Origin: a virus
Length of the DNA: 42,227 nt
Strand: one strand, 5' to 3'
Virus record (IMG/VR): IMGVR_UViG_3300017440_000003
Coordinates: 1-42,227 of that record
Part shown: positions 6,114-33,525 of the stretch, piece by piece
How the letters are laid out: every line of letters starts with the position of its first letter
Position numbering within the stretch: the first letter of the stretch is position 1
Translations under genes and position numbers: made by a program
Notes under the pieces: generated by a model
The model's input: the letters and a program-made list of their open reading frames with translations, nothing else
Told to the model about the DNA's origin: nothing
Database searches by the model: none

Positions 6114-6372
6114 CCCGTTGCGCGCTCCAGGTATCATGACCAGCGGCCGGCGCACCCCGGAAGGCAACCGGCTGGTGGGCGGGGCGCGTAACAGCCATCA
6201 TCTGACCGGCGACGGCGTTGACTATACCGGCACGACGGTAGAGGCGTTGCGCAAGTATTTCGGGCCGGGCGCGCGGTTTTTGGACGAGGGCGACCATATC
6301 CACACGACGTTGCCCGGTTATGGGAAGATTCCGTTTTTCGGCAAGCGCGGCACTACAGGGATGAAGCGTTGA
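6079..6372 (+). CDS. peptidase M15-like (zinc D-Ala-D-Ala carboxypeptidase fold) cell-wall hydrolase domain protein
   Basis: Motifs [28 protein letters not shown] and GDHIHT (H..D...H zinc triad pattern). Start uncertain: GTG 6079, TTG 6118 or ATG 6136, none with a good SD. Confidence 0.6.
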
Positions 6373-8915
6373 TGGCACAGCAGCAGGCACGCGACGAAGC
6401 CGGTAATATCTGGAACATCGACGAAGCGGGCAACCCGGTCTCGCTGGCATCTGCTGCGGGCGCTGGTGGCGGATCGGATTACGTTGCTCCGAACCCGGTG
6501 CAAGCGGCGCGGCAGTCTGTGGATTTGTCGGGTGCGCAACTTGGCAATCGCAAAACAGCGCAGCAGATTGCCCTTGAAGCGGCACAGGTTCCTTATGCTC
6601 CTCGCCAAGCGGCGGCTGACACCACGAAATCCGAAGCGGAGGCGCAGGCCGCGCAACTTGCTTTGCAGAAGGCGCAGCGCGAGGCGGCTTTGCCTGTTTC
6701 GGGGCAGGTTGGTCGCGTTAATCTTCAACGCGCGATTGATGACATCAAAGCTCGTTTCGCAGCCGGGCCGGGTCGCACGTCTGGGCTTGGTGGCTTGGCC
6801 GACTATTTACCCACCACCGAAAACCAGCAGTTTGACGCGGCTGGCAATGCCGTGCGCGGTTTTGTCGGTCCCGCACTTGGATTGACTGGTGGCCAGTTGA
6901 ACACCGAAAAAGAGGCGCAGCGCGCAGTAGGGCCATACATCCCGCAGGCCAGTGACCGAGATGCTGTTATTCTCGATAAAATCCAGCGGCTTCAGGGGCT
7001 GGCGGATGCCATGGCTGGCGCAAAACGCCAACAGCAGCAGAATCAGGCACAGGCGCAGATTGCATCAGGCGGCGGCGGCAACAGCAACCCCCAGCAGCCG
7101 GGCGGGCGTCCGCCGGGATATGACGTGGCGAGCGTTGGTGGCAACATTTCCGGTGGCGGTGGGGGCGGTTCTTTCGCCAGCGCGGCGGGTGTCGCCATGG
7201 CGCAGAAGATGAAGGCGGTTTACAACCGCGGCGGCGGCGTGCGCGAGATCAACCAGCTATTGCAGGACAATGGGTTTCAGCCGCTCACCGATCCCGGCGC
7301 TATCGCTGCGATCCAGAAGCGAGGCCCGATCAGCTTCGCGCCGCCGGTGGCCGATGATACGCGCGGTACGGTGGGTCGCGCGCTGGGGGCCGCGGCGGAT
7401 AGCGGGTTTGGCTCCTATGCGATCGGTGCAGCGGATGCGCTGACCGCAGGCAATCTTGACTCGCTGGCAGGCGGGCAAACGGGATTGGCGATCGACTATG
7501 CGCGCCAGAACAATCCCGGTGCATCGCTGCTTGGCACGGTGACGGGTGGCGCGCTTGCCGCGGGCGGTGCAGAGCTAGGCTTGGCGCGCGCCGGGCTTGG
7601 CGCTGGTGCCGCCGCGCTTGGTGGTGACGCGCTGTACGGCGCGGCATATGGCGCGGGTTCGGCTGATGATGGTTCGCGGTTGCTCGGGGCGGCGGCTGGT
7701 GGTGTGGGTGGCCTGGCTGGTGGCGCAGCGGGGCGCGGCCTTACTCGCGCGATCGGTGGGGCCTTCACAGGCGTACAGGATGCCAGCGTGCAGGGCCTGC
7801 GCGCTGCGGGCCTGCCCTTGACGGCTGGGCAGGCGCTTAGCCAAAGCGGCGCCATAGGCCGCGGCGCGCAACTGCTGGAAAACGCCACCACTGGTTTGCC
7901 CGGCGTCGGTGCTGTGACACGCGGACGCTATACCGAGGGCTTTGAGGGCTTAAACCGCGCCGCCTTCGATGAGGGCCTTTCTGATATTGGGGCCACCACC
8001 GGCGGCGTGGTGCGCGAACAGGGCGTAGACATTGCGCGCGGTGCCAGGTCGCGGGCGTACAGCGATGCGCTAGACCCCGTGCAAGTGCAGGCAGACGCTC
8101 CCTTCGTTGGCGACATGCAGGGCGCTATTGCCGCTGGCCGTGCCCTTCCCGATCCCATGAGTGGCAATCTCGACTACACCTTGCCCACCCGTGTAGGTAA
8201 TTCGTTCGATGCCAATGGCGGTCTGTCGGGGCGTGATTTTCAGCAGTCCATTCGCGGACTGCGCCGGGATGCAAAAGCCGTCGAAAGTCTGCCATACGGG
8301 TACGATTTTGGTGAGGTGACGCGGCAAGCAGAAGGCGCTCTAGAGGGCCTGCTCCAGCGGCAGGCTCCAGGTGCTCTTCCGGCATACAACGCGGCGAACG
8401 CTGCTAACCGCAAAGTCGAAATCTTGCGTGATGCCGTCAACCGTGCCCGTAGCGGCAATACCACGGGCGACCCCGGCTTGTTTTCGGCGGCTCAGCTTTC
8501 GGATGCGGCGGCGGCTAACGCAAAGAAGTTCGGTGGAACGCAGGGCACCACGCAGCAGCCTTTTTATGATCTAACCCGCGCCGCACAGCGAGTATTGCCA
8601 AGCAAGATTGCCGACAGTGGCACGGCAACCCGTGCCGCAGTGACGGCGGGATTGGGCATTGGCGGTGCCGGCACCGCCGGCTATGCGGCAGGTGATGGCG
8701 ACGGCGCCAAATACGGTATCGGCGGCACTCTGGCGCTTGGCGGCATTTTGGCGGCGGGTGGTTCCCGCGCAGGCCAGCGTGCGCTAACGGCGGCGCTGCT
8801 CGATCGTCCGCAAGTGGCTGTCCAGTTGGGACGTGGGATACAGAAGCGGGCGCGTATCGGTGGGCTGTTCGGCGCGCCATTGCTTGCCGGCACCGTGCCG
8901 TTGCTTTCGCAATGA
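6372..8915 (+). CDS. large Gly/Ala-rich internal virion / ejection protein (T7 gp16-like position)
   Basis: 847 aa from ATG 6372 (TGATG overlap with the M15 ORF). Coiled N-terminal third, then long Gly/Ala tracts. It is followed by the fibre genes. Confidence 0.5.
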   Translation: MAQQQARDEAGNIWNIDEAGNPVSLASAAGAGGGSDYVAPNPVQAARQSVDLSGAQLGNRKTAQQIALEAAQVPYAPRQAAADTTKSEAEAQAAQLALQKAQREAALPVSGQVGRVNLQRAIDDIKARFAAGPGRTSGLGGLADYLPTTENQQFDAAGNAVRGFVGPALGLTGGQLNTEKEAQRAVGPYIPQASDRDAVILDKIQRLQGLADAMAGAKRQQQQNQAQAQIASGGGGNSNPQQPGGRPPGYDVASVGGNISGGGGGGSFASAAGVAMAQKMKAVYNRGGGVREINQLLQDNGFQPLTDPGAIAAIQKRGPISFAPPVADDTRGTVGRALGAAADSGFGSYAIGAADALTAGNLDSLAGGQTGLAIDYARQNNPGASLLGTVTGGALAAGGAELGLARAGLGAGAAALGGDALYGAAYGAGSADDGSRLLGAAAGGVGGLAGGAAGRGLTRAIGGAFTGVQDASVQGLRAAGLPLTAGQALSQSGAIGRGAQLLENATTGLPGVGAVTRGRYTEGFEGLNRAAFDEGLSDIGATTGGVVREQGVDIARGARSRAYSDALDPVQVQADAPFVGDMQGAIAAGRALPDPMSGNLDYTLPTRVGNSFDANGGLSGRDFQQSIRGLRRDAKAVESLPYGYDFGEVTRQAEGALEGLLQRQAPGALPAYNAANAANRKVEILRDAVNRARSGNTTGDPGLFSAAQLSDAAAANAKKFGGTQGTTQQPFYDLTRAAQRVLPSKIADSGTATRAAVTAGLGIGGAGTAGYAAGDGDGAKYGIGGTLALGGILAAGGSRAGQRALTAALLDRPQVAVQLGRGIQKRARIGGLFGAPLLAGTVPLLSQ

Positions 8916-9791: not shown

Positions 9792-11726
9792 ATGCACCAT
9801 TATTTCGAGGCCATCACCAACAAGAGCGGCGATAGCCTGCCGGGGTATTTCGCGCGCGTGGTCGATCCCGCAACGCAGAACACTGTGACATTGGCGGCGG
9901 ACAACAATGGCACGCCGATCGTCACCACGTCCGGTGTCGAGAATGCCGCCAAGACGGACGAAAACGGCAACGTCAGCTTCTACGTGCCGCCGGGCACGTA
10001 TCATCTCGATATCTATGCGCAGAACGCCACCAGCTTCATCATGCGGGTGCCTAATGTCGCGATGAATTCGGGGCAAGGGCCGCAGGGCATACCTGGAGAA
10101 CCGGGCGAACCCGGCCCCCAAGGCGAGGGTCTTGCCGAAGTCATGGCGCCCACCGGGGCATCGGTGGTCGGGTACAAGCAGGCCGGCACCAGCACCATTG
10201 ATCGCACTACGTTGGACAAGGCACGTGAACGGCGCACGCTGACGGATTATGTGTCCGGTCCAGCTGCTGGCGCAACGACAGTGCGTGCAGCAGCGCTGGC
10301 TATGCTGGCTGATGGTGGAGGCATCTGGCCAAAGGCGGCGCAGCCATGGCCCGTCGCCGAACAAGTCGTCATGCCGCCCAACACGTTCCTGGAGTTCGAA
10401 GACGGCACCATGGTGAAGTGGACCGGACCGTCTACCGGTGGCGCCTTTTCCCCGGTGTTCGTGGCACAGGACAATTGCACGATTGGCACCACCGATCGCG
10501 CCAAGATCGTGGAGGTCTACACCGACACGCCCGACCGCTATCGCTATCCACTGTTCGCCAGCGCAGTGAGCAACGTGACGGTGACGGGCCTGCGCGGGCG
10601 CAATATGCAGCACGTATTCTGCAACTCCGCTTCCGGTTCCTATGCGGGTGTCGTGACGAGTGGCAGCGGTGCCAATGTCTGTCGCAATATCCGTATCTTC
10701 GGCGGCGGCTCGACCTATGACACGCCTTTGACCGGCGGGCAGTCCAACGCGCCCACCTACATCGCCTACACCATCGGCTTCCAGATCGAGGACGTTACCC
10801 ACGACAAGGGCAGTTCCGGCGTGCAATGGTGGGGTGGTGACGCCAATATTGACGGCGCACCCGCCAATGAGCGCAAGTGTCGCAATGGCCAGATCGTCCG
10901 TTGCTCTGCCACCGATGTGATCGGCGGCGGTATCTGGGGGTCGATGGGGCAGAATATCGACATCATTGAGCCTCGTACCGTCCGCTGCCATGATGTTGGT
11001 GTAGACATTGAGGGCGGCATCGATATCCGCGTTATCAATCCATACACGGAAGACTGCGAAAATGGTTGTCTGGCCATATTTTTCCACGCCAGCAACGTTC
11101 AGTTTATCAATCCTACCGTTGTATGCACCGCAAACGCTTTCAAACCGATGGGATTTTACAACACCGGCTACACTGCCCGCAATGTTCGTATCAGTGGAGG
11201 TAGAATGACGGGTCCGGCTGGTGGCGTTTCCATTACCAGCGCATCGGGTCAAGTCGCCAATTTCAAGATGGACAATATCGATCTGACAAATGTCGGTATT
11301 GACATGCACTACAATGCCAACACCGGCACCAATGTCCTGTCGAATGTACGTCAGCGTTTCACGGCTGATCCGACCGGTATTGCCCGTGCCTTGTGGGTCG
11401 GCGCCCTGGTCGATGATGGTGTGCGCGCAGGCGAATGGGTCATCGTTGACCATCGCATCCGCTATGACGTGGCGGCAACAACCATTGCAGTGCAGATAGA
11501 CCAAGCCGCAGCTGGGGCACCGCTATACCAGCTAGAGCGGATGAACATCTCGGATGGCCCAGCCAATGGCATTGTACTTATTTCCTCAGTGAACACGACC
11601 AGATTTATCGTCAGGGACAACACGATTGGCGGCACAACGCCCGTGACCAGAAGCACTGGCACATCGCCGTTCCTCATCGCCGGCAAAAACGTGAACCAGC
11701 AATTCACCGACTTGGCTTTTGCATGA
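9792..11726 (+). CDS. tailspike / depolymerase with parallel beta-helix
   Basis: 644 aa. Short collagen segment GPQGIPGEPGEPGPQGEG (nt 10077-10130), then repeated beta-helix-like rungs (NVTVTGLRG..., NIRIFGG..., IDIRVINP..., NVQFINP..., NVRISGG...). Confidence 0.7.
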   Translation: MHHYFEAITNKSGDSLPGYFARVVDPATQNTVTLAADNNGTPIVTTSGVENAAKTDENGNVSFYVPPGTYHLDIYAQNATSFIMRVPNVAMNSGQGPQGIPGEPGEPGPQGEGLAEVMAPTGASVVGYKQAGTSTIDRTTLDKARERRTLTDYVSGPAAGATTVRAAALAMLADGGGIWPKAAQPWPVAEQVVMPPNTFLEFEDGTMVKWTGPSTGGAFSPVFVAQDNCTIGTTDRAKIVEVYTDTPDRYRYPLFASAVSNVTVTGLRGRNMQHVFCNSASGSYAGVVTSGSGANVCRNIRIFGGGSTYDTPLTGGQSNAPTYIAYTIGFQIEDVTHDKGSSGVQWWGGDANIDGAPANERKCRNGQIVRCSATDVIGGGIWGSMGQNIDIIEPRTVRCHDVGVDIEGGIDIRVINPYTEDCENGCLAIFFHASNVQFINPTVVCTANAFKPMGFYNTGYTARNVRISGGRMTGPAGGVSITSASGQVANFKMDNIDLTNVGIDMHYNANTGTNVLSNVRQRFTADPTGIARALWVGALVDDGVRAGEWVIVDHRIRYDVAATTIAVQIDQAAAGAPLYQLERMNISDGPANGIVLISSVNTTRFIVRDNTIGGTTPVTRSTGTSPFLIAGKNVNQQFTDLAFA

Positions 11727-12752: not shown

Positions 12753-13072
12753 CCGTTTTTGATTACATGAACGTGGTCGGCCGTATCATCCTGACGATCT
12801 TCGTGGTCGTGAAGCTGGGCATGTTCCGCGAGATGGCAAACCCCGCCGAACGGTACGGCCTTGGCATGATGGGTGCGGGATCGTTCCTGACCATCCCCAT
12901 CATCATCATGAAATACGGCAATCCTTTCGAGGGATGGGCCGTTTCGCTGCTGACCTATGGCGCTATCCTGTTCATTGCCGGCCGTACATGGAGAGATAGC
13001 AAGCATTCCCGTGCGAATGCTGCTATGGTGCGACAGGGCCGTGAGTGGCAGGCGCAGAAAGGTAAGCCGTGA
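12749..13072 (+). CDS. membrane protein, holin candidate
   Basis: 107 aa with three hydrophobic helices and a basic C-terminal tail. ATGA-coupled upstream and overlaps the endolysin start. Confidence 0.5.
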   Translation: MTVFDYMNVVGRIILTIFVVVKLGMFREMANPAERYGLGMMGAGSFLTIPIIIMKYGNPFEGWAVSLLTYGAILFIAGRTWRDSKHSRANAAMVRQGREWQAQKGKP

Positions 13073-13692
13073 TGACTCCCCATGCATTCGCCAAGCAATT
13101 CATCACGCGCTGGGAGAACGGCAACCAGACCGATCCCAAGAAGACCCATTCGCTTGATCCGGTCGATAACGGCAACTGGACCGGCGGCAAGCAGAACGTA
13201 GGCGCGCTGGTAGGATCAAACCACGGCGTCACGGCAGCGGCATTGGCAGAGCATCGCGGCGTCAAGGCGTACGATATCACGCGCGTCGTGATGGCTGCGC
13301 TGACATTGGATGAAGCCGCCGATATCGCGCTGGCGCTCTACTACAAGCGTCCAAAGCTGGACCTGCTACCGTGGAACCGCGTCACCGCGTCCATCTTCGA
13401 TATGGGATGGGGCACTGGTCCGGCGCAGGCGGTGAAGGTACTACAGCGGTTGATCGGCACCGACGACGATGGCCGCATGGGGCCGGCTACCGCTGCTGCC
13501 TACAAACGTTTTGTGGAGACGCAGGGCGAGCCGTTCGCGGCAGGTGCGTGGTGGCTGACCCGTAATAACTTCTATGACCTGATTATTTCCAACAGGCCCG
13601 CCAATGCCCGCTACGAGAATGGGTGGAAGAATCGTTCTCGGTATTTCACGCCGGGCGATGGCGAAGGTTGGTGGGGGAGGTTTGAGGCGTGA
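13072..13692 (+). CDS. endolysin, GH108-type lysozyme with PG_binding_3-like domain
   Basis: N-terminal FITRWENG...DNGNWTGG...GVT and C-terminal DDDGRMGPATAAAYKRF match the GH108 + peptidoglycan-binding architecture common in alphaproteobacterial phages. ATG 13072 (GTG 13069 also possible). No signal or SAR segment. Confidence 0.75.
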   Translation: MTPHAFAKQFITRWENGNQTDPKKTHSLDPVDNGNWTGGKQNVGALVGSNHGVTAAALAEHRGVKAYDITRVVMAALTLDEAADIALALYYKRPKLDLLPWNRVTASIFDMGWGTGPAQAVKVLQRLIGTDDDGRMGPATAAAYKRFVETQGEPFAAGAWWLTRNNFYDLIISNRPANARYENGWKNRSRYFTPGDGEGWWGRFEA

Positions 13693-13895
13693 ACGACACC
13701 CACAACCTAATCGCCTTCCTGTCCGTGGTGTCCGCGATTGTCGCGCTTGCCCTGATTGGCGGCACCGGTAGCGACCTTGCCATCATGACCGGACTTATCG
13801 GCGTGCTTGGCACCTTCAGGCCGCGTGAGCGCACCAAGGCCGAACCCGCCGGCACACCCGGCGATCCTGTTTCCGTGGAGGAAGTGAAGCCATGA
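13689..13895 (+). CDS. two-TM small membrane protein (class II holin/pinholin-like size)
   Basis: 68 aa. Helices LIAFLSVVSAIVALALIGG and LAIMTGLIGVLGTF, with a charged C-terminal tail. Overlaps the endolysin stop. Confidence 0.5.
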   Translation: MNDTHNLIAFLSVVSAIVALALIGGTGSDLAIMTGLIGVLGTFRPRERTKAEPAGTPGDPVSVEEVKP

Positions 13896-14026
13896 AACTC
13901 GGCAACATACTGAAGCTGGCCGTAAAGGTCGTCAAAGCCAACCCCTCCCTCGTCATCAGCGCGGTTACCGCTATCGGCCCGATCGTGGAGGCGGTAAAGA
14001 CGGAAGCCAAGAAGCCGAAGGTGTAA
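13892..14026 (+). CDS. 44-aa cationic peptide (MKLGNILKLAVKVVKANPSLVISAVTAIGPIVEAVKTEAKKPKV)
   Basis: ATGA overlap with the preceding gene. 8 Lys against 2 Glu. Below the ORF-track cut-off. Last gene of the lysis cassette. Confidence 0.45.
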   Translation: MKLGNILKLAVKVVKANPSLVISAVTAIGPIVEAVKTEAKKPKV

Positions 14027-14030
14027 CGAC

Positions 14031-16448
14031 ATGAGCGACATTACCGATATCGTCAGCGCCATGGGTGGCTATCAAGCCGCCACGCCGCAGGACAAGACGG
14101 CGCTGGAGGCGGTGCTGGGGAGTCGGGGCGGGCGGCAGCGGGCGGGGGGTGTGGTGCCGCCTTCTCCTGATGTTCCTACAATAGATTGGTTAAGTGCTTC
14201 TTTCATCGGTTTTCAAACCGGCACCGTTGAATCTTCATCGCCCGCCGCGGTGATGCGCAAGACCTTCACGCCCGCGAAGTCCGTGTCTCGCGCGACGCTG
14301 CAAGCGACGGCGCTTGGCACGTATATCCCGTACATGAATGGCAATCGGGTCGGCAATAGAGAGATGACGCCAGGGTGGACGGACTATGCCAAGCGCCGCC
14401 ATTTCCAGACCTACGATGTCACCGCCATGATCGCGTCGGGCGCGAATGCCGTAGGTGTCGAGGTCGGCGACGGCTGGGCGCACGGCTACATGAGCCTGCG
14501 AGGCCGGAACTACTACGGCGCCGACGTGCCACGCGCGATGGTGGCGCTGCGGCTCGACTATGCTGACGGCACCAGTGAGACGATCGTGTCGGACGCCTCG
14601 TGGAAGGCGACCACGAGCGATAACCTGGCAAATGACTGGTACAACGGGTCGTCGCACGACGCCCGCCTGCGCAAGGATTGGTCGAATCCTGCCGTCTCGG
14701 ATGTTGCCTGGGCCAGCCCGACCGCGACCGCTGCGGGTAGCGTGCCGCTTGTCAAGCAGCCATCGCCACCCGCGCGCCGTATGGAAGCTCTCGCCCCGAT
14801 CGCGCGCACTAATCCCAGCGCCGGGGTCTATATCTTCGACTTCGGACAGAACCACGCCGGCTACTGCGCCCTAACCGTCACCGGCGCATCGGCAGGACAG
14901 CAGATCACGCTGCGTCATGCCGAAGACCTCAAGGATGACGGCACTCTTTACACCGCCAATCTGCGGGCGGCACAGGCCACCGATCGCTTCATTTCGGCTG
15001 GGGGTACGACCGAAACGTTCGAGCCGCGGCACACTTGGCACGGCTATCGCTATGTTGAGGTGACAGGCTATCCCGGAGTCCCGCCGCTCAACTGCCTGAC
15101 CAGCTACTTCGTCTATCAGGACGCGCCGCTGGTATCGACCTTTACCACGTCCTCGACCGTGCTGAAGAAGTCGTGGGACGCGGCGGTGCTGGCGTGGAAG
15201 GGCAATGCTCTGACCTTGCCCACCGACTGCCCCCAGCGCGACGAACGGCTCGGCTGGGGTGCCGACGCGCACTTGTTTGCGCAAGCAGCGACCTTCGTGC
15301 AGGACAGCGCGGCTTTCCTCGACAAATATTGTGACGACCTCGACGACAGCGCAGTTAGCGGACAGGTCGGCGACGTGGCGCCCTTCGTCGCCGATGTGTC
15401 GCGCGGTCGTGCGGGCTGGGGCGAAGCGGCGATCATCATCCCGTGGATACTGTATCAGGCGTATGGCGATACCGCCTATCTAAGCCGCCACTGGCCGACG
15501 ATGAAGGCAGTGCTTGGCGCGCTTCCCTACGCTGACTTCTACAACGACTACCTCAACCTGTCGCAACCGACTACCCCTGACGTATTCCGCTACGCCTTCG
15601 CCTATCATGCGGCGGATATCGTCAAGCAGTCGGCAGACCTGCTAGGCGACACCGCCACTTCGGCTAGCGCGGCATCCAAGATGGACTCCTTCGCCACTAC
15701 ATGGCGGGCGTTCGTCTCGGGCGGCGGCTCGGTCATCGGCAACGAGTCGCAGTGCGGCTACATTCTCGGCCTCGCCTTCAACATCCTGCCGGCCGGGCAG
15801 CGCGCTGCCGCTTTGTCGGCGCTGGCGTCCAAGATCACGGAGGACGGCCTCAAATGTGGCTTTGTCGGGCTGACCTACCTGCACGACGTGCTAGCCGATG
15901 GCGGGCGTCTCGACCTTGCCTATACGCTGGCGGAGAAAACCACAAACCCGTCGCTCGGTTATCAGTTGGGCACCGGCCTCACGACTACTGCCGAACAATG
16001 GGACCCCCGCGGCCTGCGTGGGGTCAATGACGCGGCCAACAGTTACAATCACTATGTCCGCGGCGCGGTGCTGTCGTGGCTGGCCCGCAGCGTGGCCGGG
16101 ATCGATGCCGCCACGCCGGGCTTTGCCACCGTGCTTCTCCGGCCCCGGCCAGGCGGTGCCGCCACCAGCGCCAAGCTGACCTATGCCAGCAAGGCCGGTA
16201 CGATCAGCACCGATTGGTCGGTCACTGGCAATACCCTGACTTGGACCTTCACGACGCCGGTGCAAGCGATTGTGTCGCTGCCCCCCGGCTACGTCACCAC
16301 CGGCCTGACCGGCGCCATTACCGCCGACCCGATCACGGGCGGCAGTCGGTATCAGGTCGCTGCCGGCACCTATTCTATCACTGCCACCATCACCTCAAAC
16401 TACGTCCAGTCCGGCTATGTTGCCGATGGCTATATTGGAGCAATGTAA
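14031..16448 (+). CDS. alpha-L-rhamnosidase family protein (GH78)
   Basis: 805 aa. N-domain pattern YMNGNRVGNREMTPGWTDYAKRRHFQTYDVT...GANAVGVEVGDGW and catalytic-domain signature DCPQRDERLGWGADA. No signal peptide or TM segment. Confidence 0.85.
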   Translation: MSDITDIVSAMGGYQAATPQDKTALEAVLGSRGGRQRAGGVVPPSPDVPTIDWLSASFIGFQTGTVESSSPAAVMRKTFTPAKSVSRATLQATALGTYIPYMNGNRVGNREMTPGWTDYAKRRHFQTYDVTAMIASGANAVGVEVGDGWAHGYMSLRGRNYYGADVPRAMVALRLDYADGTSETIVSDASWKATTSDNLANDWYNGSSHDARLRKDWSNPAVSDVAWASPTATAAGSVPLVKQPSPPARRMEALAPIARTNPSAGVYIFDFGQNHAGYCALTVTGASAGQQITLRHAEDLKDDGTLYTANLRAAQATDRFISAGGTTETFEPRHTWHGYRYVEVTGYPGVPPLNCLTSYFVYQDAPLVSTFTTSSTVLKKSWDAAVLAWKGNALTLPTDCPQRDERLGWGADAHLFAQAATFVQDSAAFLDKYCDDLDDSAVSGQVGDVAPFVADVSRGRAGWGEAAIIIPWILYQAYGDTAYLSRHWPTMKAVLGALPYADFYNDYLNLSQPTTPDVFRYAFAYHAADIVKQSADLLGDTATSASAASKMDSFATTWRAFVSGGGSVIGNESQCGYILGLAFNILPAGQRAAALSALASKITEDGLKCGFVGLTYLHDVLADGGRLDLAYTLAEKTTNPSLGYQLGTGLTTTAEQWDPRGLRGVNDAANSYNHYVRGAVLSWLARSVAGIDAATPGFATVLLRPRPGGAATSAKLTYASKAGTISTDWSVTGNTLTWTFTTPVQAIVSLPPGYVTTGLTGAITADPITGGSRYQVAAGTYSITATITSNYVQSGYVADGYIGAM

Positions 16449-17302
16449 TGGTCGATATCGTCACCCGTGCCGCCAAAGGTAGCGCTCTGACCTACAACGA
16501 AATGGACACTAACTTTGCCAATCTGAAGGCGGCTATTGAAGCTCTTCAGCCCGTGGCAAATCCGTGGACGCCGGCCAATCTCGCCTCAACCGTGGCGTGG
16601 TGGGACGCATCCGAAACGTCCAGCCTCACCATCGCCAGCGGTACGGCTTCCGCTTGGACAGACAAAAAGAACGGCATCGTTGCGTCCAACTCGACTGCCG
16701 CACAGCAGCCCGCCTATTCTGCGACGGCGCTCAACAGCAAGCCGGGCCTGACGTTCGATGGTGTGAACGATCGCCTCGCGTTCCCGACCAATTCCTTTCT
16801 GCCGGTCGGCACAGCGCCGCTTACCGTGCTGATCGTCGCCCGCGCTGGCGCCACTGCGGGCGATATGGCGATCGTTACCTGGGGTACGGCCGCTAATGGT
16901 CAATGGATCAAGATCGGCGAGGACGGCACTTCCCCCAACCCGGCCATCGGTGACCTGTACACGGCTGGCGCCGCGCTTGGCACCGCCGCCTTCCCCAGCA
17001 CCACCCAAATCCTCGCATACACGGCCAGCACGACGGCAACGAGGATGTACAACGACGGCCTGACCGGTGGGAGTGGGCCGAACCCCGGTAGCAAGAACAC
17101 GAACGGCAGTGCCGGTTTCATCGGCATGGACCTGCGGACGGTTGGCTTCTGGAACAGCGTCATTCAGGAGATCGTCGTTTGCACGGGCGTGTTGTCGACG
17201 GCCGATCGTCAGAAATACGAGGGCTATGCGGCGCTGAAGTGGGGCCTTCGCGCCAATCTGGCGAGCGACCATCCCTACAAGACCACTGGCCCTTCGGTTT
17301 AA
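16448..17302 (+). CDS. tail-fibre-like protein with LamG/concanavalin-type lectin domain
   Basis: ORF-track 16076..17302 trimmed to ATG 16448 (TAATG overlap). N-terminal VTRAAKGSALTYNEMDTNFANL resembles a phage fibre N-terminal motif. The remainder (LTFDGVNDRLAF...MYNDG...) looks like Laminin_G_3. Confidence 0.55.
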   Translation: MVDIVTRAAKGSALTYNEMDTNFANLKAAIEALQPVANPWTPANLASTVAWWDASETSSLTIASGTASAWTDKKNGIVASNSTAAQQPAYSATALNSKPGLTFDGVNDRLAFPTNSFLPVGTAPLTVLIVARAGATAGDMAIVTWGTAANGQWIKIGEDGTSPNPAIGDLYTAGAALGTAAFPSTTQILAYTASTTATRMYNDGLTGGSGPNPGSKNTNGSAGFIGMDLRTVGFWNSVIQEIVVCTGVLSTADRQKYEGYAALKWGLRANLASDHPYKTTGPSV

Positions 17303-17312
17303 GGATCGCCCC

Positions 17313-18926
17313 ATGCGTTACCTATTCGTTGCCGCGCTTCTCGCTGCTTGGTCAACCCCCGCCACAGCCCAATCCATCACCGGCTGCGGCACGGTGGCAA
17401 TCCCCAAGGCGCAGGCCAGTGATGCCGACAAGCTGAAGACGGGTGCCGATTGTTTCGCCAAAGCTGAAGCCGTGGCGGCAGGCGCCAAGCAGGCGCGTCT
17501 CGATCGCGCCGCCACGCTGATACCGCGTATGAAGCTGGGCATCAACGTCGCGGGTATCGCTTATTGGTCCGCAGAACAGACCTTCGCAAATCAGGCAACC
17601 GTCCTCGAATGGCGCGACCCTGCTGGTGGCTGGGGCTACGTTGCGGCAGACCGGCTACGCAATGGCACGCCGATGGCGATCGAGCCGGGTCGCGGCCTGC
17701 TCGCCTTCCTGACCCCGCCCGCTGCCGCCTTCCGTGGTGAAGGCCCGACGACCCGCTGCACTTGGGCCGGCAAGGGATCGGTATCGATCGCCAGCGCCGG
17801 CCGGATCGTCAGCAGCGGTGCTGGCACGATCACCTTCGAATGGCCGAAGACCAAGGCCCCGATGCAGACGGTGACGGTCAATCTCGGCGCCACCGACGCC
17901 AGCGATCCGATCCGCGATATCGACTGCCGCGAGCCGGACGAGAAGGGCGTCTTCTCGACGCAGCTGCTGGACTACCTCAAGCCCTACGGCGTGCTGCGCT
18001 TCCTCGACTGGACGACCGCCAACGGCAATCCGAAGTCGGTCACCTGGGCGACGCGCGGCACAGCCGGGGTCAATGCCACCGGCGGCAGCGATGGGACCGC
18101 GCTGGAGTATCAGATCGGGCTGGCCAATGCGATCGGCGCCTCACCATGGCTGACGCTGCCGTGGAATGCAGACGATGACTATCACCGCCGCGCGGCCACG
18201 CTGGTGAAGGCTGGCATCCCGCCCGGGCGGCAGGTCTATGTGGAAGTCGCGAACGAGGTCTGGAACTGGCAGTTCGGTGCGGCACAACAGGCACGCGACG
18301 AAGGCGTTGCCGCGAAACTGGCCGACACACCCTTCCAGGCCGGTCTGCACCGCTATGCGCAGAAGACTATCCAGGTCATGAAGATATGGGCGGAGGTCTT
18401 CGCCGATCGACCGGGCCAGCTGGTGCGGGTGGCCGCGACCCAGAATGATAATCCGTGGACTGCGGAGGTCGTGCTGGCTTTCCCCAGCCTCGCGGCGAAC
18501 GTCGACGCGCTGGCGACCGCCCCTTACTTCGGCCATGGGTTCTTCGACGCCAATCCGACCGAGACGGACGTGGCCAAGCTGATGGCGACGCTCGCCGGCT
18601 ATGCGAAGGGCGTCGTGTCGGGTCCGGTCACGCAGAACGCCGCCATCGCGAAGAAGTATGGGAAGCGGTTTATTGCCTACGAGGCGGGGCAGCACGTCGT
18701 CGGGCCGGACCGCCTGCCGCTCGTCACGCTGATGCAGCGGTCACCGCTGATGGAACCGATCTATCGCGCTTTCATCGCGGACATGGCGAGCAAGACCGAT
18801 CTGCTGACGCTCTACGCCGCCACGGGACCGATCAGCCAGTATGGTGCTTGGGGGCTGCGGGAGTATGCGGGCCAGCTGATCGCGGAGACGCCTAAGCTGC
18901 GGGGGGTGGTGACCGCCCCGCATTGA
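17313..18926 (+). CDS. Sec-secreted glycoside-hydrolase-like protein (TIM-barrel clan GH-A-type NE motif)
   Basis: 537 aa. Signal peptide MRYLFVAALLAAWSTPATA|QS. LRFLDWTTANGN and VYVEVANEVWNWQF resemble GH-A acid/base strand motifs. Last gene of the late block. Confidence 0.5.
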   Translation: MRYLFVAALLAAWSTPATAQSITGCGTVAIPKAQASDADKLKTGADCFAKAEAVAAGAKQARLDRAATLIPRMKLGINVAGIAYWSAEQTFANQATVLEWRDPAGGWGYVAADRLRNGTPMAIEPGRGLLAFLTPPAAAFRGEGPTTRCTWAGKGSVSIASAGRIVSSGAGTITFEWPKTKAPMQTVTVNLGATDASDPIRDIDCREPDEKGVFSTQLLDYLKPYGVLRFLDWTTANGNPKSVTWATRGTAGVNATGGSDGTALEYQIGLANAIGASPWLTLPWNADDDYHRRAATLVKAGIPPGRQVYVEVANEVWNWQFGAAQQARDEGVAAKLADTPFQAGLHRYAQKTIQVMKIWAEVFADRPGQLVRVAATQNDNPWTAEVVLAFPSLAANVDALATAPYFGHGFFDANPTETDVAKLMATLAGYAKGVVSGPVTQNAAIAKKYGKRFIAYEAGQHVVGPDRLPLVTLMQRSPLMEPIYRAFIADMASKTDLLTLYAATGPISQYGAWGLREYAGQLIAETPKLRGVVTAPH

Positions 18927-32956: not shown

Positions 32957-33525
32957 ATGTTCTTATTGCATGCGAGTATTCAGCTACTGTGCGGGATGCT
33001 TTTCGCTCTAAAGGCCATAATGCATGGTCATGCGACATACTACCTTCCGAAGGTGATCGTAGGTGGCATCATGAAGGTGATGTTATTGAGTTCCTCAACC
33101 ATACACACATGAATTGGGACCTGATGATCGCCCATCCGCCATGCACCGATCTGGCCGTCAGCGGTGCCCGCCATTTTGCAGAAAAGATCGCAGATGGCAG
33201 ACAACAACGCGCACTGGAATTCGTGCAGGCGCTGCTTCATGCCCCCATTCCCCGCATCGCCTTGGAAAACCCCATCAGCGTTATCAGCAGCAAAATCCGC
33301 AAGCCCGATCAGATCATCCAGCCGTGGCAGTTTGGGCATGGCGAAACGAAGGCAACGTGCCTGTGGCTGAAAGGGCTACCCAAACTGGTGCCGACCAACA
33401 TTGTCGAGGGGCGTTCAGACCGCATCCATAAGATGCCTCCGGGGCCTAATCGGTGGAAGGAACGCAGCCGGACCTATCAGGGCATCGCCGATGCGATGGC
33501 CGAGCAATGGGGAAACGCAGCATGA
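32953..33525 (+). CDS. short DNA (cytosine-5) methyltransferase-like protein
   Basis: 190 aa. AHPPCTDLAVSG (PC motif IV-like) and IALENP (motif VI-like), as in short phage Dcm-like proteins. The first ~175 nt are visibly AT-richer than the rest. Confidence 0.5.
   Translation: MNVLIACEYSATVRDAFRSKGHNAWSCDILPSEGDRRWHHEGDVIEFLNHTHMNWDLMIAHPPCTDLAVSGARHFAEKIADGRQQRALEFVQALLHAPIPRIALENPISVISSKIRKPDQIIQPWQFGHGETKATCLWLKGLPKLVPTNIVEGRSDRIHKMPPGPNRWKERSRTYQGIADAMAEQWGNAA

What the first reader, a model, noticed from the sequence alone, without database searches (positions are those of the whole stretch)
14031..16448. Phage-encoded GH78 alpha-L-rhamnosidase at the distal end of the late operon
The 805-aa product shows the rhamnosidase N-domain pattern (NGNRVGNREMTPGWTDYAKRRHFQTYDVT...GDGW) and the catalytic-domain signature DCPQRDERLGW. 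GH78 enzymes are exo-acting bacterial and fungal enzymes, not the beta-helix lyases or hydrolases usually used as phage depolymerases. This genome already has a classical tailspike at 9792. The gene has no signal peptide, TM segment or obvious virion-anchor. It lies after the lysis genes and heads a three-gene glycan module (14031-18926). Hypothesis: it trims rhamnose side chains of host EPS or LPS, for example sphingan-type polymers, either on the virion or when released at lysis to free progeny.
Basis: partly seen in the sequence, partly recalled or inferred. Interest (0 to 1): 0.75.

Follow-up and report, generated by a model that had tools for sequence, protein, structure and literature searches.

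The report
Phage rhamnosidase on a swappable docking module
A 42-kb tailed phage, probably of Sphingomonas-type bacteria, carries an apparently intact sugar-trimming enzyme (GH78 alpha-L-rhamnosidase) joined to a short N-terminal peptide that related phages attach to quite different sugar-cutting enzymes, so it is most likely an interchangeable surface-sugar tool of the phage rather than a stray bacterial gene.

Summary
ORF 14031-16448 (805 aa) matches all four GH78 Pfam domains (E 1e-11 to 1e-65). Its closest solved structure is SaRha78A (E 2e-144), and it keeps the catalytic acid (E405), the base (E655) and the residues that align with the SaRha78A acid-motif and His916 positions. The window is a complete-looking podovirus-type genome, and the gene follows the GH108 endolysin cassette in the late operon.

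However, residues 1-37 form a conserved module found at residues 1-40 of at least 10 other proteins of very different lengths. Among the heads identified are SGNH esterases, LamG, F5/8-C and a GH-A glycosidase; several others have no Pfam match. DNA homology to a sister phage stops at nt 14145, just after this module. Homology to an unrelated siphovirus-like contig starts at nt 14205. So the GH78 core plus the downstream lectin gene (16448-17302) is a mobile cassette plugged onto a lineage-specific N-terminal module.

Close GH78 relatives (47-86% identity) sit in six other loci, five of them with clear phage genes, including P2-like, siphovirus-like and GTA-like backbones and a prophage. Gene 17313-18926 is a signal-peptide-bearing clan GH-A fold protein conserved in the phage lineage.

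Best reading: a late-expressed, probably virion-docked accessory exo-rhamnosidase. The main rival is a soluble enzyme released at lysis. I rate it a new variant of a known kind.

The parts
9792..11726 (+). Primary tailspike or fibre candidate (644 aa). Conserved N-terminal anchor of about 93-110 aa followed by a collagen-like G-x-y stretch, then a hypervariable C-terminus. Possible docking partner.
   Evidence: N-terminal residues 1-93 are 45-98% identical in 12 related phage loci, while residues 200-644 hit none of them. No Pfam, PHROG or NCBIfam hit. A prophage homologue shows only a faint Beta_helix hit.
13069..13692 (+). Endolysin (GH108 + PG_binding_3)
   Evidence: Pfam E 1.7e-10 and 1.8e-10; PHROG 315 endolysin E 5e-24.
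13689..14026 (+). Two small lysis-cassette ORFs (68 aa, hydrophobic; 44 aa) directly upstream of GH78.
   Evidence: Sequence read. The 68-aa ORF is 93-97% identical in sister phages and was used to collect 28 related IMG/VR loci. Their function is not tested.
14031..16448 (+). GH78 alpha-L-rhamnosidase ORF (805 aa). Starts 4 nt after the upstream stop; its stop overlaps the next start (TAATG).
14031..14141 (+). Conserved N-terminal module, residues 1-37 (MSDITDIVSAMGGYQAATPQDKTALEAVLGSRGGRQR). Putative docking peptide.
   Evidence: It is 97% identical to the N-terminus of the first slot gene of sister phage L091 and about 52% identical to that of the 680-aa slot protein of L092. phmmer against 1.84 billion representatives finds it at residues 1-40 of P0265-P0272, P0279 and P0281, which are 82-1049 aa long. 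In alignment A4, similarity ends sharply after GGRQR.
14142..14204 (+). Gly/Pro-rich linker, which is also the recombination junction of the cassette.
   Evidence: DNA homology to L091 ends at nt 14145. DNA homology to the unrelated contig L006 begins at nt 14205.
14277..14786 (+). Bac_rhamnosid_N domain (residues 83-252)
   Evidence: Pfam PF08531, E 2.7e-46.
14820..15113 (+). Bac_rhamnosid concanavalin-like domain (residues 264-361)
   Evidence: Pfam PF05592, E 6.4e-28.
15132..16094 (+). (alpha/alpha)6 catalytic domain (residues 368-688). It holds the general acid E405 (nt 15243-15245, in DCPQRDERLGW) and the general base E655 (nt 15993-15995, in TTTAEQWD).
   Evidence: Pfam PF17389, E 1.8e-65. 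Alignment to SaRha78A Glu636 and Glu895. Invariant in A1. Residues verified.
16098..16445 (+). Bac_rhamnosid_C beta-sandwich (residues 690-752) plus a 53-aa C-terminal tail that is conserved in the closest relatives.
   Evidence: Pfam PF17390, E 3.3e-11. The tail is conserved in P0002 and P0003.
16448..17302 (+). 284-aa partner protein: N-terminal helices (residues 2-33) plus a ConA/LamG lectin jelly-roll. It travels with the GH78 core.
   Evidence: 77% identical to the gene that follows GH78 in the unrelated contig L001/L006. AF2 model pLDDT 78. Foldseek against PDB finds lectin/CBM domains and the cyanopodophage Pan3 tailspike 9vyh_p. Foldseek against BFVD finds many phage LamG proteins of 250-280 aa, some named minor tail or structural protein. 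PHROG 10356 virion structural protein, E 7.5e-26.
17313..18926 (+). 537-aa protein with a Sec-type signal peptide (MRYLFVAALLAAWSTPATA|QS) and a clan GH-A TIM-barrel fold. Last gene of the late operon and a backbone gene of the lineage.
   Evidence: AF2 pLDDT 88. Foldseek hits GH51, GH53, GH26, GH5, GH10, GH79 and GH39, E down to 2e-7. N314-E315 and E457 are invariant and lie at the ends of strands 308-312 and 452-460. It is 54-90% identical in L091, L092, L139 and L140. Named homologues occur only in Sphingomonadaceae.

Best explanation
ORF 14031-16448 encodes a GH78 exo-alpha-L-rhamnosidase that looks catalytically competent. It is reduced to the four core domains. The bacterial N-terminal Ig domain and the CBM67 domain are missing, and a 37-residue N-terminal module plus a Gly/Pro linker takes their place.

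That module is specific to this phage lineage, podovirus-type phages most likely of Sphingomonadaceae. In sister phages and metagenomic relatives it carries entirely different heads. Those identified are carbohydrate-active or carbohydrate-binding: SGNH esterases, LamG+SGNH, an F5/8 type C protein and a GH-A glycosidase domain. Several others have no Pfam match.

The gene is transcribed and translated as part of the late operon, right after the lysis cassette. It is translationally coupled to a lectin-fold partner (16448-17302).

The most likely mechanism is this. The N-terminal module docks the enzyme onto a conserved tail component as an optional second receptor-binding or depolymerase unit, as the conserved-peptide second RBPs of Klebsiella KP34/KP32-type podophages do. 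On the virion it removes terminal alpha-L-rhamnose branches from the host's rhamnose-containing surface polysaccharide, and the lectin partner supplies glycan binding.

What is shown: GH78 identity and catalytic residues, late-operon embedding, the shared N-terminal module with swapped heads, and the cassette breakpoints.

What is inferred: virion attachment, the docking partner, exo-debranching of a sphingan-type substrate, and the host.
For: GH78 identity and active site.

Late-operon embedding: a 4-nt gap upstream and a TAATG overlap downstream. No promoter- or terminator-like site lies between the endolysin and 18926 beyond chance level.

Conserved module with variable heads:
- tblastn to L091 (97% over 39 aa) and L092 (52% over 27 aa), both at the same slot.
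- phmmer finds the module at residues 1-40 of 10 different 50%-identity clusters, 82-1049 aa long.
- Similarity stops after GGRQR.
- Pfam on the heads gives LamG+GDSL, SGNH and F5/8-C. The C-terminus of P0270 is homologous to the 17313 family (hhalign 97.8%, E 8.5e-13).

DNA breakpoints fall at 14145 and 14205, that is, exactly in the linker.

In the three fetched loci that carry the module (window, L091, L092), it occurs together with the g9792-type tailspike N-terminus. L139 and L140 keep the slot and g17313 but have a different tailspike N-terminus, and they have other N-termini on their slot proteins.

The partner gene has a phage-typical lectin or 'tailspike'-like fold and a virion-structural PHROG hit.

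Precedent: in KP34viruses the second RBP carries a short conserved N-terminal peptide, and 5-8 genes including the endolysin separate it from the first RBP (PMC6872550).
Against: - There is no direct evidence that the protein is in virions.
- No T4gp10-like or other branching domain was detected in g9792; Pfam gave only sub-threshold noise.
- GH78 enzymes are not known to form the trimers typical of tailspikes.
- Close GH78 homologues in other phages lack this module. P0005 and P0006 keep the bacterial Ig domain, and the GH78 of the P2-like phage has no recognisable anchor.
- In many related phages the post-lysis slot is empty. In others it carries plainly non-structural cargo: an IS605 TnpB, a hexapeptide acyltransferase, a PEP-CTERM protein.
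- Prophage L004 has a g9792-like N-terminus (41-42% identity) but no module on its GH78.
Confidence: 0.5

Rival explanations
1. Soluble late enzyme. The GH78 is made in the cytoplasm late in infection and released by lysis, alone or together with the lectin partner. Outside the cell it strips rhamnose from EPS and cell debris. Progeny are then not trapped, and neighbouring cells are sensitised. The N-terminal module serves some purpose other than virion docking, or is only a recombination scar.
For: There is no signal peptide. The gene lies immediately after the lysis cassette in three unrelated backbones: the window, the siphovirus-like L006 and the P2-like L002. In Rathayibacter phage NCPPB3778 it lies at the end of the late operon. 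Homologues in other phages have no recognisable anchor. The slot is accessory and often empty. Soluble depolymerases have been proposed for phage enzymes that lack anchors (PMC6872550).
Against: This reading gives no reason for a 37-aa N-terminal sequence to be kept, with 12 invariant positions, on at least 10 otherwise unrelated proteins and to end exactly at the linker. Nor does it explain why its divergence in L092 (about 52%) tracks the divergence of the backbone (58-64%).
Confidence: 0.33
2. Auxiliary metabolic gene or moron. The enzyme acts inside the cell, for example on rhamnosides or lipid-linked EPS precursors. It would boost host metabolism, or alter the surface polysaccharide for superinfection exclusion.
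For: GH78 has been listed among viral AMGs in soil viromes (PMC10127799). The protein is cytoplasmic by sequence. Homologues occur in prophages (L004). The post-lysis slot collects cargo genes.
Against: No independent promoter or terminator was found. The gene is wedged into the late operon with 4-nt and overlapping junctions. No integrase or lysogeny module was found in the window ORFs tested. The neighbouring genes are a lectin and a secreted glycosidase, not sugar-catabolic genes. The conserved N-terminal module is left unexplained.
Confidence: 0.1
3. Catalytically silent binder. The GH78 fold is used as a rhamnose-recognising receptor-binding domain without turnover.
For: None directly. 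Inactive glycosidase folds do occur as binding modules in some phage receptor-binding proteins (my own general knowledge).
Against: The catalytic acid, the catalytic base and the aligned active-site residues are invariant across the whole phage clade.
Confidence: 0.05

Closest known systems
SaRha78A, Streptomyces avermitilis GH78 alpha-L-rhamnosidase (PDB 3W5M/3W5N)
   Same: The four core domains align over residues 70-745 (E 2.3e-144). The catalytic acid, catalytic base and aligned active-site residues are conserved.
   Different: The phage protein lacks the N-terminal Ig domain and the rhamnose-binding CBM67 region: the match starts at SaRha78A residue 300. A 37-aa phage-specific module plus linker stands in their place. 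It scores 576 bits against the NCBIfam equivalog cut-off of 1720.
Second receptor-binding proteins with a conserved N-terminal peptide in Klebsiella podophages (KP34, KP32, K1-5/SP6 type; PMC6872550)
   Same: A short N-terminal sequence conserved within a phage group. Unrelated enzymatic C-terminal parts. The gene is separated from the first RBP by lysis and other genes. The unit is optional or truncated in some members.
   Different: The head is an (alpha/alpha)6 exo-glycosidase, and in the relatives SGNH esterases or TIM barrels, not a trimeric beta-helix. The peptide is 37 aa rather than 7-11 aa. No T4gp10-like branching domain was identified on the first RBP. Virion attachment is untested.
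P22/Sf6 tailspike endorhamnosidases
   Same: Phage enzymes that cleave alpha-L-rhamnosidic bonds in host surface polysaccharide (established knowledge).
   Different: Those are trimeric right-handed beta-helices that act as endo-enzymes on O-antigen. This protein has a GH78 (alpha/alpha)6 fold with an exo-type active site. It is not a member of that family.
Rathayibacter phage NCPPB3778 gene 27 (annotated alpha-L-rhamnosidase, KX911187.2)
   Same: A GH78 in an isolated phage, also near the distal end of the late operon.
   Different: Only 23% identical, with an actinobacterial host and no shared N-terminal module. No functional study was found in the searchable literature.
Bacillus sp. GL1 RhaA/RhaB GH78 of the gellan degradation pathway
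   Same: GH78 enzymes acting on rhamnose of sphingan-derived oligosaccharides (my own knowledge of that literature, not checked here).
   Different: Those are cellular catabolic enzymes.

Membership tests
CAZy GH78 alpha-L-rhamnosidase | Sequence membership: Bac_rhamnosid_N, Bac_rhamnosid, Bac_rhamnosid6H and Bac_rhamnosid_C domains above the curated thresholds | tested here: met
   Bits 158, 97, 222 and 43 against cut-offs 25, 22, 24.5 and 22.
CAZy GH78 alpha-L-rhamnosidase | Catalytic general acid and base (SaRha78A Glu636 and Glu895) and the aligned active-site residues | tested here: met
   E405 and E655, plus D399, R403, W409 and H674, align with these positions and are invariant in A1.
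CAZy GH78 alpha-L-rhamnosidase | Hydrolysis of terminal alpha-L-rhamnosides (inverting) | not testable with these tools
   Needs a pNP-alpha-L-rhamnopyranoside or polysaccharide assay.
NCBIfam NF041573 rhamnosid_Stmyc (equivalog) | Full-length score at or above 1720 bits | tested here: not met
   576.5 bits. The match covers only profile positions 296-990. It is a relative, not an equivalog.
Phage second RBP or depolymerase with a conserved N-terminal docking peptide (sensu Latka et al. 2019) | N-terminal sequence conserved within the phage group, followed by non-homologous C-terminal parts | tested here: met
Phage second RBP or depolymerase with a conserved N-terminal docking peptide (sensu Latka et al. 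2019) | C-terminal part is a predicted carbohydrate-active or carbohydrate-binding domain | tested here: met
   GH78 in the window. LamG+GDSL, SGNH, F5/8-C and a GH-A-like domain in other module bearers. Several heads have no Pfam hit.
Phage second RBP or depolymerase with a conserved N-terminal docking peptide (sensu Latka et al. 2019) | A first RBP with a virion anchor and a branching (T4gp10-like) docking domain | tested here: inconclusive
   g9792 has a conserved N-terminus of 93-110 aa. Pfam found no branching domain. No HHpred or structure model was available for it.
Phage second RBP or depolymerase with a conserved N-terminal docking peptide (sensu Latka et al. 2019) | Physical presence on the virion | not testable with these tools
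   Needs virion proteomics or cryo-EM.
Beta-helix tailspike depolymerases (P22-type endorhamnosidase, pectate-lyase-like) | Right-handed parallel beta-helix catalytic domain | tested here: not met
   The whole catalytic region aligns to the (alpha/alpha)6 GH78 structures 3W5M, 6I60 and 6GSZ. There is no Beta_helix or Pectate_lyase Pfam hit.
Moron or auxiliary metabolic gene | Autonomous transcription unit (own promoter and terminator), typically expressed from a prophage | tested here: inconclusive
   The consensus scan found no such sites around the gene, and the overall counts were at or below chance level. The junctions are 4 nt and overlapping. The scan covers only sigma-70-type sites.

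The most novel reading that the evidence does not exclude
The phage carries a small multi-enzyme glycan-processing set rather than a single depolymerase. It has three parts. The first is a virion-docked exo-acting debranching rhamnosidase. The second is a separately encoded lectin subunit that replaces the lost CBM67. The third is a Sec-exported clan GH-A glycanase from a family with no Pfam match here. The rhamnosidase-plus-partner pair moves as a cassette between podovirus-type, siphovirus-like, P2-like and GTA-like phages. It is plugged onto lineage-specific docking peptides. That would make exo-glycosidase 'heads' a general, overlooked class of phage receptor-modifying enzymes.
Probability: 0.25. 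Interest if true: 0.75.

Novelty: new variant of a known kind. Interest (0 to 1): 0.6.

Why it matters
Known phage depolymerases are overwhelmingly trimeric beta-helix endo-enzymes. Here a canonical exo-acting (alpha/alpha)6 glycosidase occupies the position and the modular architecture of a swappable receptor-binding or depolymerase unit. The same 37-aa N-terminal module carries at least ten different heads.

If the module is a docking peptide, three things follow. First, phage surface-glycan enzymology would extend to debranching exo-glycosidases. Second, there would be a ready plug-and-play handle for engineering phages of Sphingomonadaceae, which are biofilm formers and industrial sphingan (gellan, welan, diutan) producers. 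Third, it would point to new enzymes for tailoring sphingans: the GH78 and the GH-A family of g17313, which has no Pfam, PHROG or NCBIfam match here.

If instead the enzyme is soluble, it is a clear case of a lysis-linked exo-glycosidase that recurs in unrelated phage backbones.

Tried and rejected
- Megablast of the gene and of the whole window against GenBank phages gave no relatives. The only hit was an 80-nt match in a methyltransferase region.
- The genome-contig scan with the GH78 alignment was meant to find prophage copies in named hosts.
- A first HMM of the N-terminal module, searched in 28 related IMG/VR loci, found only the seed phages. The module was then found by phmmer against the representative library.
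- Pfam at relaxed thresholds gave nothing usable on the tailspike N-terminus, the module, the GH78 C-terminal tail or the small lysis ORFs.
- Pfam on the second type of GH78 partner protein (L004, L131, L132, L133) and on the extra termini of P0002 and P0004 also gave nothing.
- I looked for a shared small gene upstream of GH78 across loci and found none by BLASTP.
- The P22-type endorhamnosidase reading is rejected because the fold is wrong.
- Bacterial contamination or mis-binning is rejected. The gene sits inside an uninterrupted late operon of a complete-looking phage genome. Its GC3 (0.77) is within the range of the phage genes (0.65-0.80). Its 5' end is shared with sister phages.
- Literature searches found no functional study of a phage GH78 and nothing on the Pan3 tailspike.
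Full report
**1. The observation**

The ORF 14031-16448 (+) is real. It has an ATG start and encodes 805 aa, and the same call appears in the public assemblies of this contig.

- Domains: it matches all four Pfam GH78 domains far above threshold. These are Bac_rhamnosid_N at residues 83-252 (E 2.7e-46), Bac_rhamnosid at 264-361 (6.4e-28), Bac_rhamnosid6H at 368-688 (1.8e-65) and Bac_rhamnosid_C at 690-752 (3.3e-11).
- Closest structure: Streptomyces avermitilis SaRha78A, 3W5M, E 2.3e-144 over residues 70-745.
- Catalytic residues: the general acid Glu636 and base Glu895 of SaRha78A (roles as stated in PMC7263609) align with E405 (in DCPQRDERLGW) and E655 (in TTTAEQWD).
- Other aligned active-site residues: D399, R403, W409 and H674 align with D630, R634, W640 and H916.
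- All of these are invariant in the nine closest relatives.
- Equivalog status: the protein is not an equivalog of the Streptomyces enzyme (576 bits against a cut-off of 1720). It lacks the N-terminal Ig domain and the CBM67 region, since the match starts at SaRha78A residue 300.

**2. The setting**

The window is a complete-looking phage genome of 42.2 kb.

- Phage genes: large terminase, portal, scaffold, major head protein, a collagen-like fibre and virion proteins match PHROGs. Replication and recombination genes are also present.
- No tRNA was found. No integrase was found among the ORFs tested.
- The portal is about 28-31% identical to those of 40-44 kb podoviruses of Rhizobium and Sulfitobacter. 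No GenBank phage is close at the DNA level.
- Late operon order: tail genes; a 644-aa tailspike candidate (9792-11726); small genes; a GH108 endolysin (13069-13692); two small ORFs; GH78; a 284-aa gene (16448-17302); a 537-aa gene (17313-18926). The strand then flips.
- GH78 starts 4 nt after the preceding stop, and its own stop overlaps the next start (TAATG).
- A consensus scan shows no promoter or terminator around it beyond chance.

So it is a late gene, co-expressed with lysis and structural genes.

**3. The neighbours**

Gene 16448-17302:
- It has few homologues.
- Its AF2 model (pLDDT 78) shows N-terminal helices followed by a ConA/LamG jelly-roll.
- Foldseek against PDB finds lectin and CBM domains and the 269-aa tailspike of cyanopodophage Pan3.
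- Foldseek against BFVD finds many phage LamG proteins of 250-280 aa, some named minor tail or structural protein.
- It matches a 'virion structural protein' PHROG.

Gene 17313-18926:
- It has a typical Sec signal peptide.
- Its model is confident (pLDDT 88) and matches clan GH-A TIM-barrel glycosidases: GH51, GH53, GH26, GH5, GH10, GH79 and GH39.
- The invariant N314-E315 and E457 sit at the ends of the model strands 308-312 and 452-460. These are the positions of the GH-A acid/base and nucleophile.
- It has no Pfam, PHROG or NCBIfam match.
- Every named homologue is from Sphingomonas, Sphingobium or Sphingomicrobium. This is the only host evidence I have.

**4.

Sister phages L091 (42.7 kb) and L092 (41.6 kb) share the backbone with the window: tail genes, the tailspike N-terminus, the lysis genes and g17313.

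Between the 44-aa lysis ORF and g17313 they carry different genes:
- L091: 104 + 282 + 474 aa, the last one SGNH/GDSL-like.
- L092: a single 680-aa protein.

The first 39 residues of the window GH78 are 97% identical to the start of the L091 slot gene. Over 27 residues they are about 52% identical to the start of the L092 protein. Nothing beyond that point is homologous.

A phmmer search with residues 1-40 against 1.84 billion representatives found the same sequence at residues 1-40 of ten further proteins, 82 to 1049 aa long. Alignment A4 shows 12 invariant positions, and similarity ends abruptly after GGRQR at residue 37.

The heads of these proteins (unless stated):

| Protein | Head |
|---|---|
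| P0266 | LamG + GDSL/SGNH |
| P0272 | SGNH |
| P0267 | F5/8 type C |
| P0270 | domain homologous to the g17313 family (hhalign 97.8%, E 8.5e-13) |
| P0265, P0268, P0269, P0271, P0279, P0281 | no Pfam match |

At the DNA level, homology between the window and L091 runs from 13070 to 14145 and resumes at 17367. Homology to the unrelated contig L006 runs from 14205 to beyond 16845 at 80.5%.

The exchange unit is therefore the GH78 core plus the lectin gene. It is joined to a lineage-specific 37-aa module exactly at a Gly/Pro linker.

**5. A phage-borne GH78 clade**

The nearest relatives of the enzyme are not cellular. They lie in the following contexts:

| Relative | Identity | Context |
|---|---|---|
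| P0002 | 86% | Siphovirus-like UViG (L006). After a GH108 endolysin and four small genes. Followed by the same lectin gene (77% identical). |
| P0004 | 64% | P2-like myovirus. Between the lysis genes and tail-completion genes R/S. |
| P0005 | 60% | Prophage in a 113-kb contig. Two genes after a tailspike whose N-terminus resembles that of g9792. |
| P0006 | 59% | Bacterial contig L132 (MutS and GlnD genes upstream), with no clear phage genes. Shares the downstream partner described below. |
| P0008 | 48% | SGNH-GH78 fusion. Three genes after a GTA-type host-specificity protein. |
| P0009 | 47% | Between a 1192-aa pectate-lyase-like protein and a 1435-aa protein with a GH5 domain. |

Below these, identity drops to about 43% in Streptomyces and other bacteria.

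In L004, L131, L132 and L133 the GH78 is followed by a different conserved partner of 263-468 aa. So the enzyme usually travels with a downstream partner.

GH78 is otherwise rare in phages:
- No PHROG family matches it.
- GenBank phages hold one isolate, Rathayibacter phage NCPPB3778. It is 23% identical, and its gene is also next to last in the late operon.
- Five IMG/VR contigs carry two conserved GH78 motifs, against more than 600 stretches in bacterial genomes. The motif scan gives a lower bound only.

**6. The slot**

Twenty-eight IMG/VR relatives were collected through the conserved 68-aa lysis ORF. In many of them the late operon simply ends after the lysis genes.

Others carry unrelated cargo in the slot:
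- an 882-aa protein plus a hexapeptide acyltransferase;
- an 870-aa protein plus a PEP-CTERM protein;
- an IS605 TnpB.

L139 and L140 keep g17313 and a three-gene set related to that of L091. They have other N-termini on the first slot gene and a different tailspike N-terminus.

The g9792-type tailspike N-terminus (residues 1-93) is present in 12 related phage loci (excluding the L102 duplicate of L091), with no C-terminal similarity at all. So g9792 is the core, hypervariable receptor-binding protein, and the post-lysis protein is optional.

**7. Mechanism**

Best supported (confidence about 0.5): the GH78 is an interchangeable enzymatic head on a docking module. It would be a secondary receptor-binding or depolymerase unit attached to a conserved tail component. 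It would remove terminal alpha-L-rhamnose from a rhamnose-bearing host polysaccharide, with the lectin partner providing binding.

The closest precedent is the conserved-peptide second RBP of Klebsiella KP34/KP32-type podophages. In KP34viruses that gene is separated from the first RBP by 5-8 genes, including the endolysin (PMC6872550).

Main rival (about 0.33): a soluble late enzyme released at lysis. The evidence for it:
- The gene adjoins the lysis cassette in three unrelated backbones.
- Homologues elsewhere lack an anchor.
- The slot is accessory.

The evidence against it is the strongly conserved, sharply bounded N-terminal module.

An intracellular AMG or moron role (about 0.1) and a non-catalytic binder (about 0.05) are less likely, for the reasons given under the rival explanations.

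The sphingan substrate is plausible for a Sphingomonadaceae host. That rests on my own knowledge that welan and diutan carry terminal rhamnose side chains, and it is untested here.

**8. Verdict**

Membership in GH78 is solid. Membership in the class of second RBPs with a conserved docking peptide is met for the sequence-architecture criteria. It is inconclusive for the branching domain on the first RBP and untestable for virion presence.

It is a new variant of a known kind: a non-beta-helix, exo-type glycosidase head within a modular phage enzyme system. Interest is 0.6.

Noticed in passing
window 17313-18926: A signal-peptide-bearing protein with a clan GH-A fold (invariant NE and E motifs) and no Pfam, PHROG or NCBIfam match. 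It is conserved at 54-90% identity as the last late gene in related phages, and at 40-51% identity in Sphingomonas, Sphingobium and Sphingomicrobium chromosomes. It may be a glycoside hydrolase family that is not yet described.
   Followed up: partly
window 14031-14141; proteins P0265-P0272, P0279, P0281: A 37-aa N-terminal module (MSDxTDxxSAMGxYQ...RGGRQR) heads at least 10 unrelated proteins, 82-1049 aa long. The genomic contexts of these proteins could not be looked up.
   Followed up: partly
L004 12582-13700; L131 13018-13806; L132 12577-13983; L133 10436-11815: A second kind of conserved partner protein (263-468 aa, 33-72% identical to one another, no Pfam family) directly follows the GH78 gene in these four loci. 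The lectin gene takes this position in the window and in L006.
   Followed up: partly
L131 10001-13006 (P0008): A 1001-aa fusion of an SGNH/GDSL-like N-terminal region to the GH78 core, in a small phage with a GTA-type host-specificity protein. The SGNH assignment rests on reading the sequence only. It could be an esterase plus rhamnosidase in a single polypeptide.
   Followed up: no
L112 8603-9802: An IS605-family TnpB (OrfB_IS605 + Cas12f1-like TNB domains) is inserted at the post-lysis slot of a related phage.
   Followed up: no
L127 11420-12118: A 232-aa protein with a signal-peptide-like N-terminus and a C-terminal PEP-CTERM sorting motif is encoded after an 870-aa protein in the post-lysis slot of a related phage. 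PEP-CTERM proteins are normally tied to exosortase and EPS systems of the host.
   Followed up: no
L140 17897-21500: The 61-kb contig that carries a related phage also encodes PAPS reductase, a CysN/APS-kinase fusion and an inositol-phosphatase-like (CysQ-type) protein. These are either host flank of a prophage or sulfur-assimilation auxiliary genes.
   Followed up: no
window 9792-11726: In the tailspike candidate, a conserved N-terminus of about 93 aa is followed by a collagen-like G-x-y run (residues about 95-113). Its C-terminus has no detectable relative in any of the related loci and no family hit.
   Followed up: partly
window 33115-33194: An 80-nt stretch is 86% identical to a DNA cytosine methyltransferase gene of Pseudomonas phage 62-2. 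This is the only megablast hit of the whole window to GenBank phages.
   Followed up: no
window about 6136-6372: A 78-aa gene with a Peptidase_M15_3 domain lies just upstream of the 848-aa tail protein (6369-8915), according to the precomputed Pfam hit on the public gene call. It may be a virion-associated peptidoglycan peptidase.
   Followed up: no
L091 7395-8559: In the sister phage the module-bearing ORF is only 104 aa, with Gly/Trp-rich repeats. It stops 2 nt before a 282-aa ORF. This could be a frameshift or a split gene. The last 34 residues of the 104-aa ORF match the C-terminus of the 397-aa slot protein of L140.
   Followed up: partly
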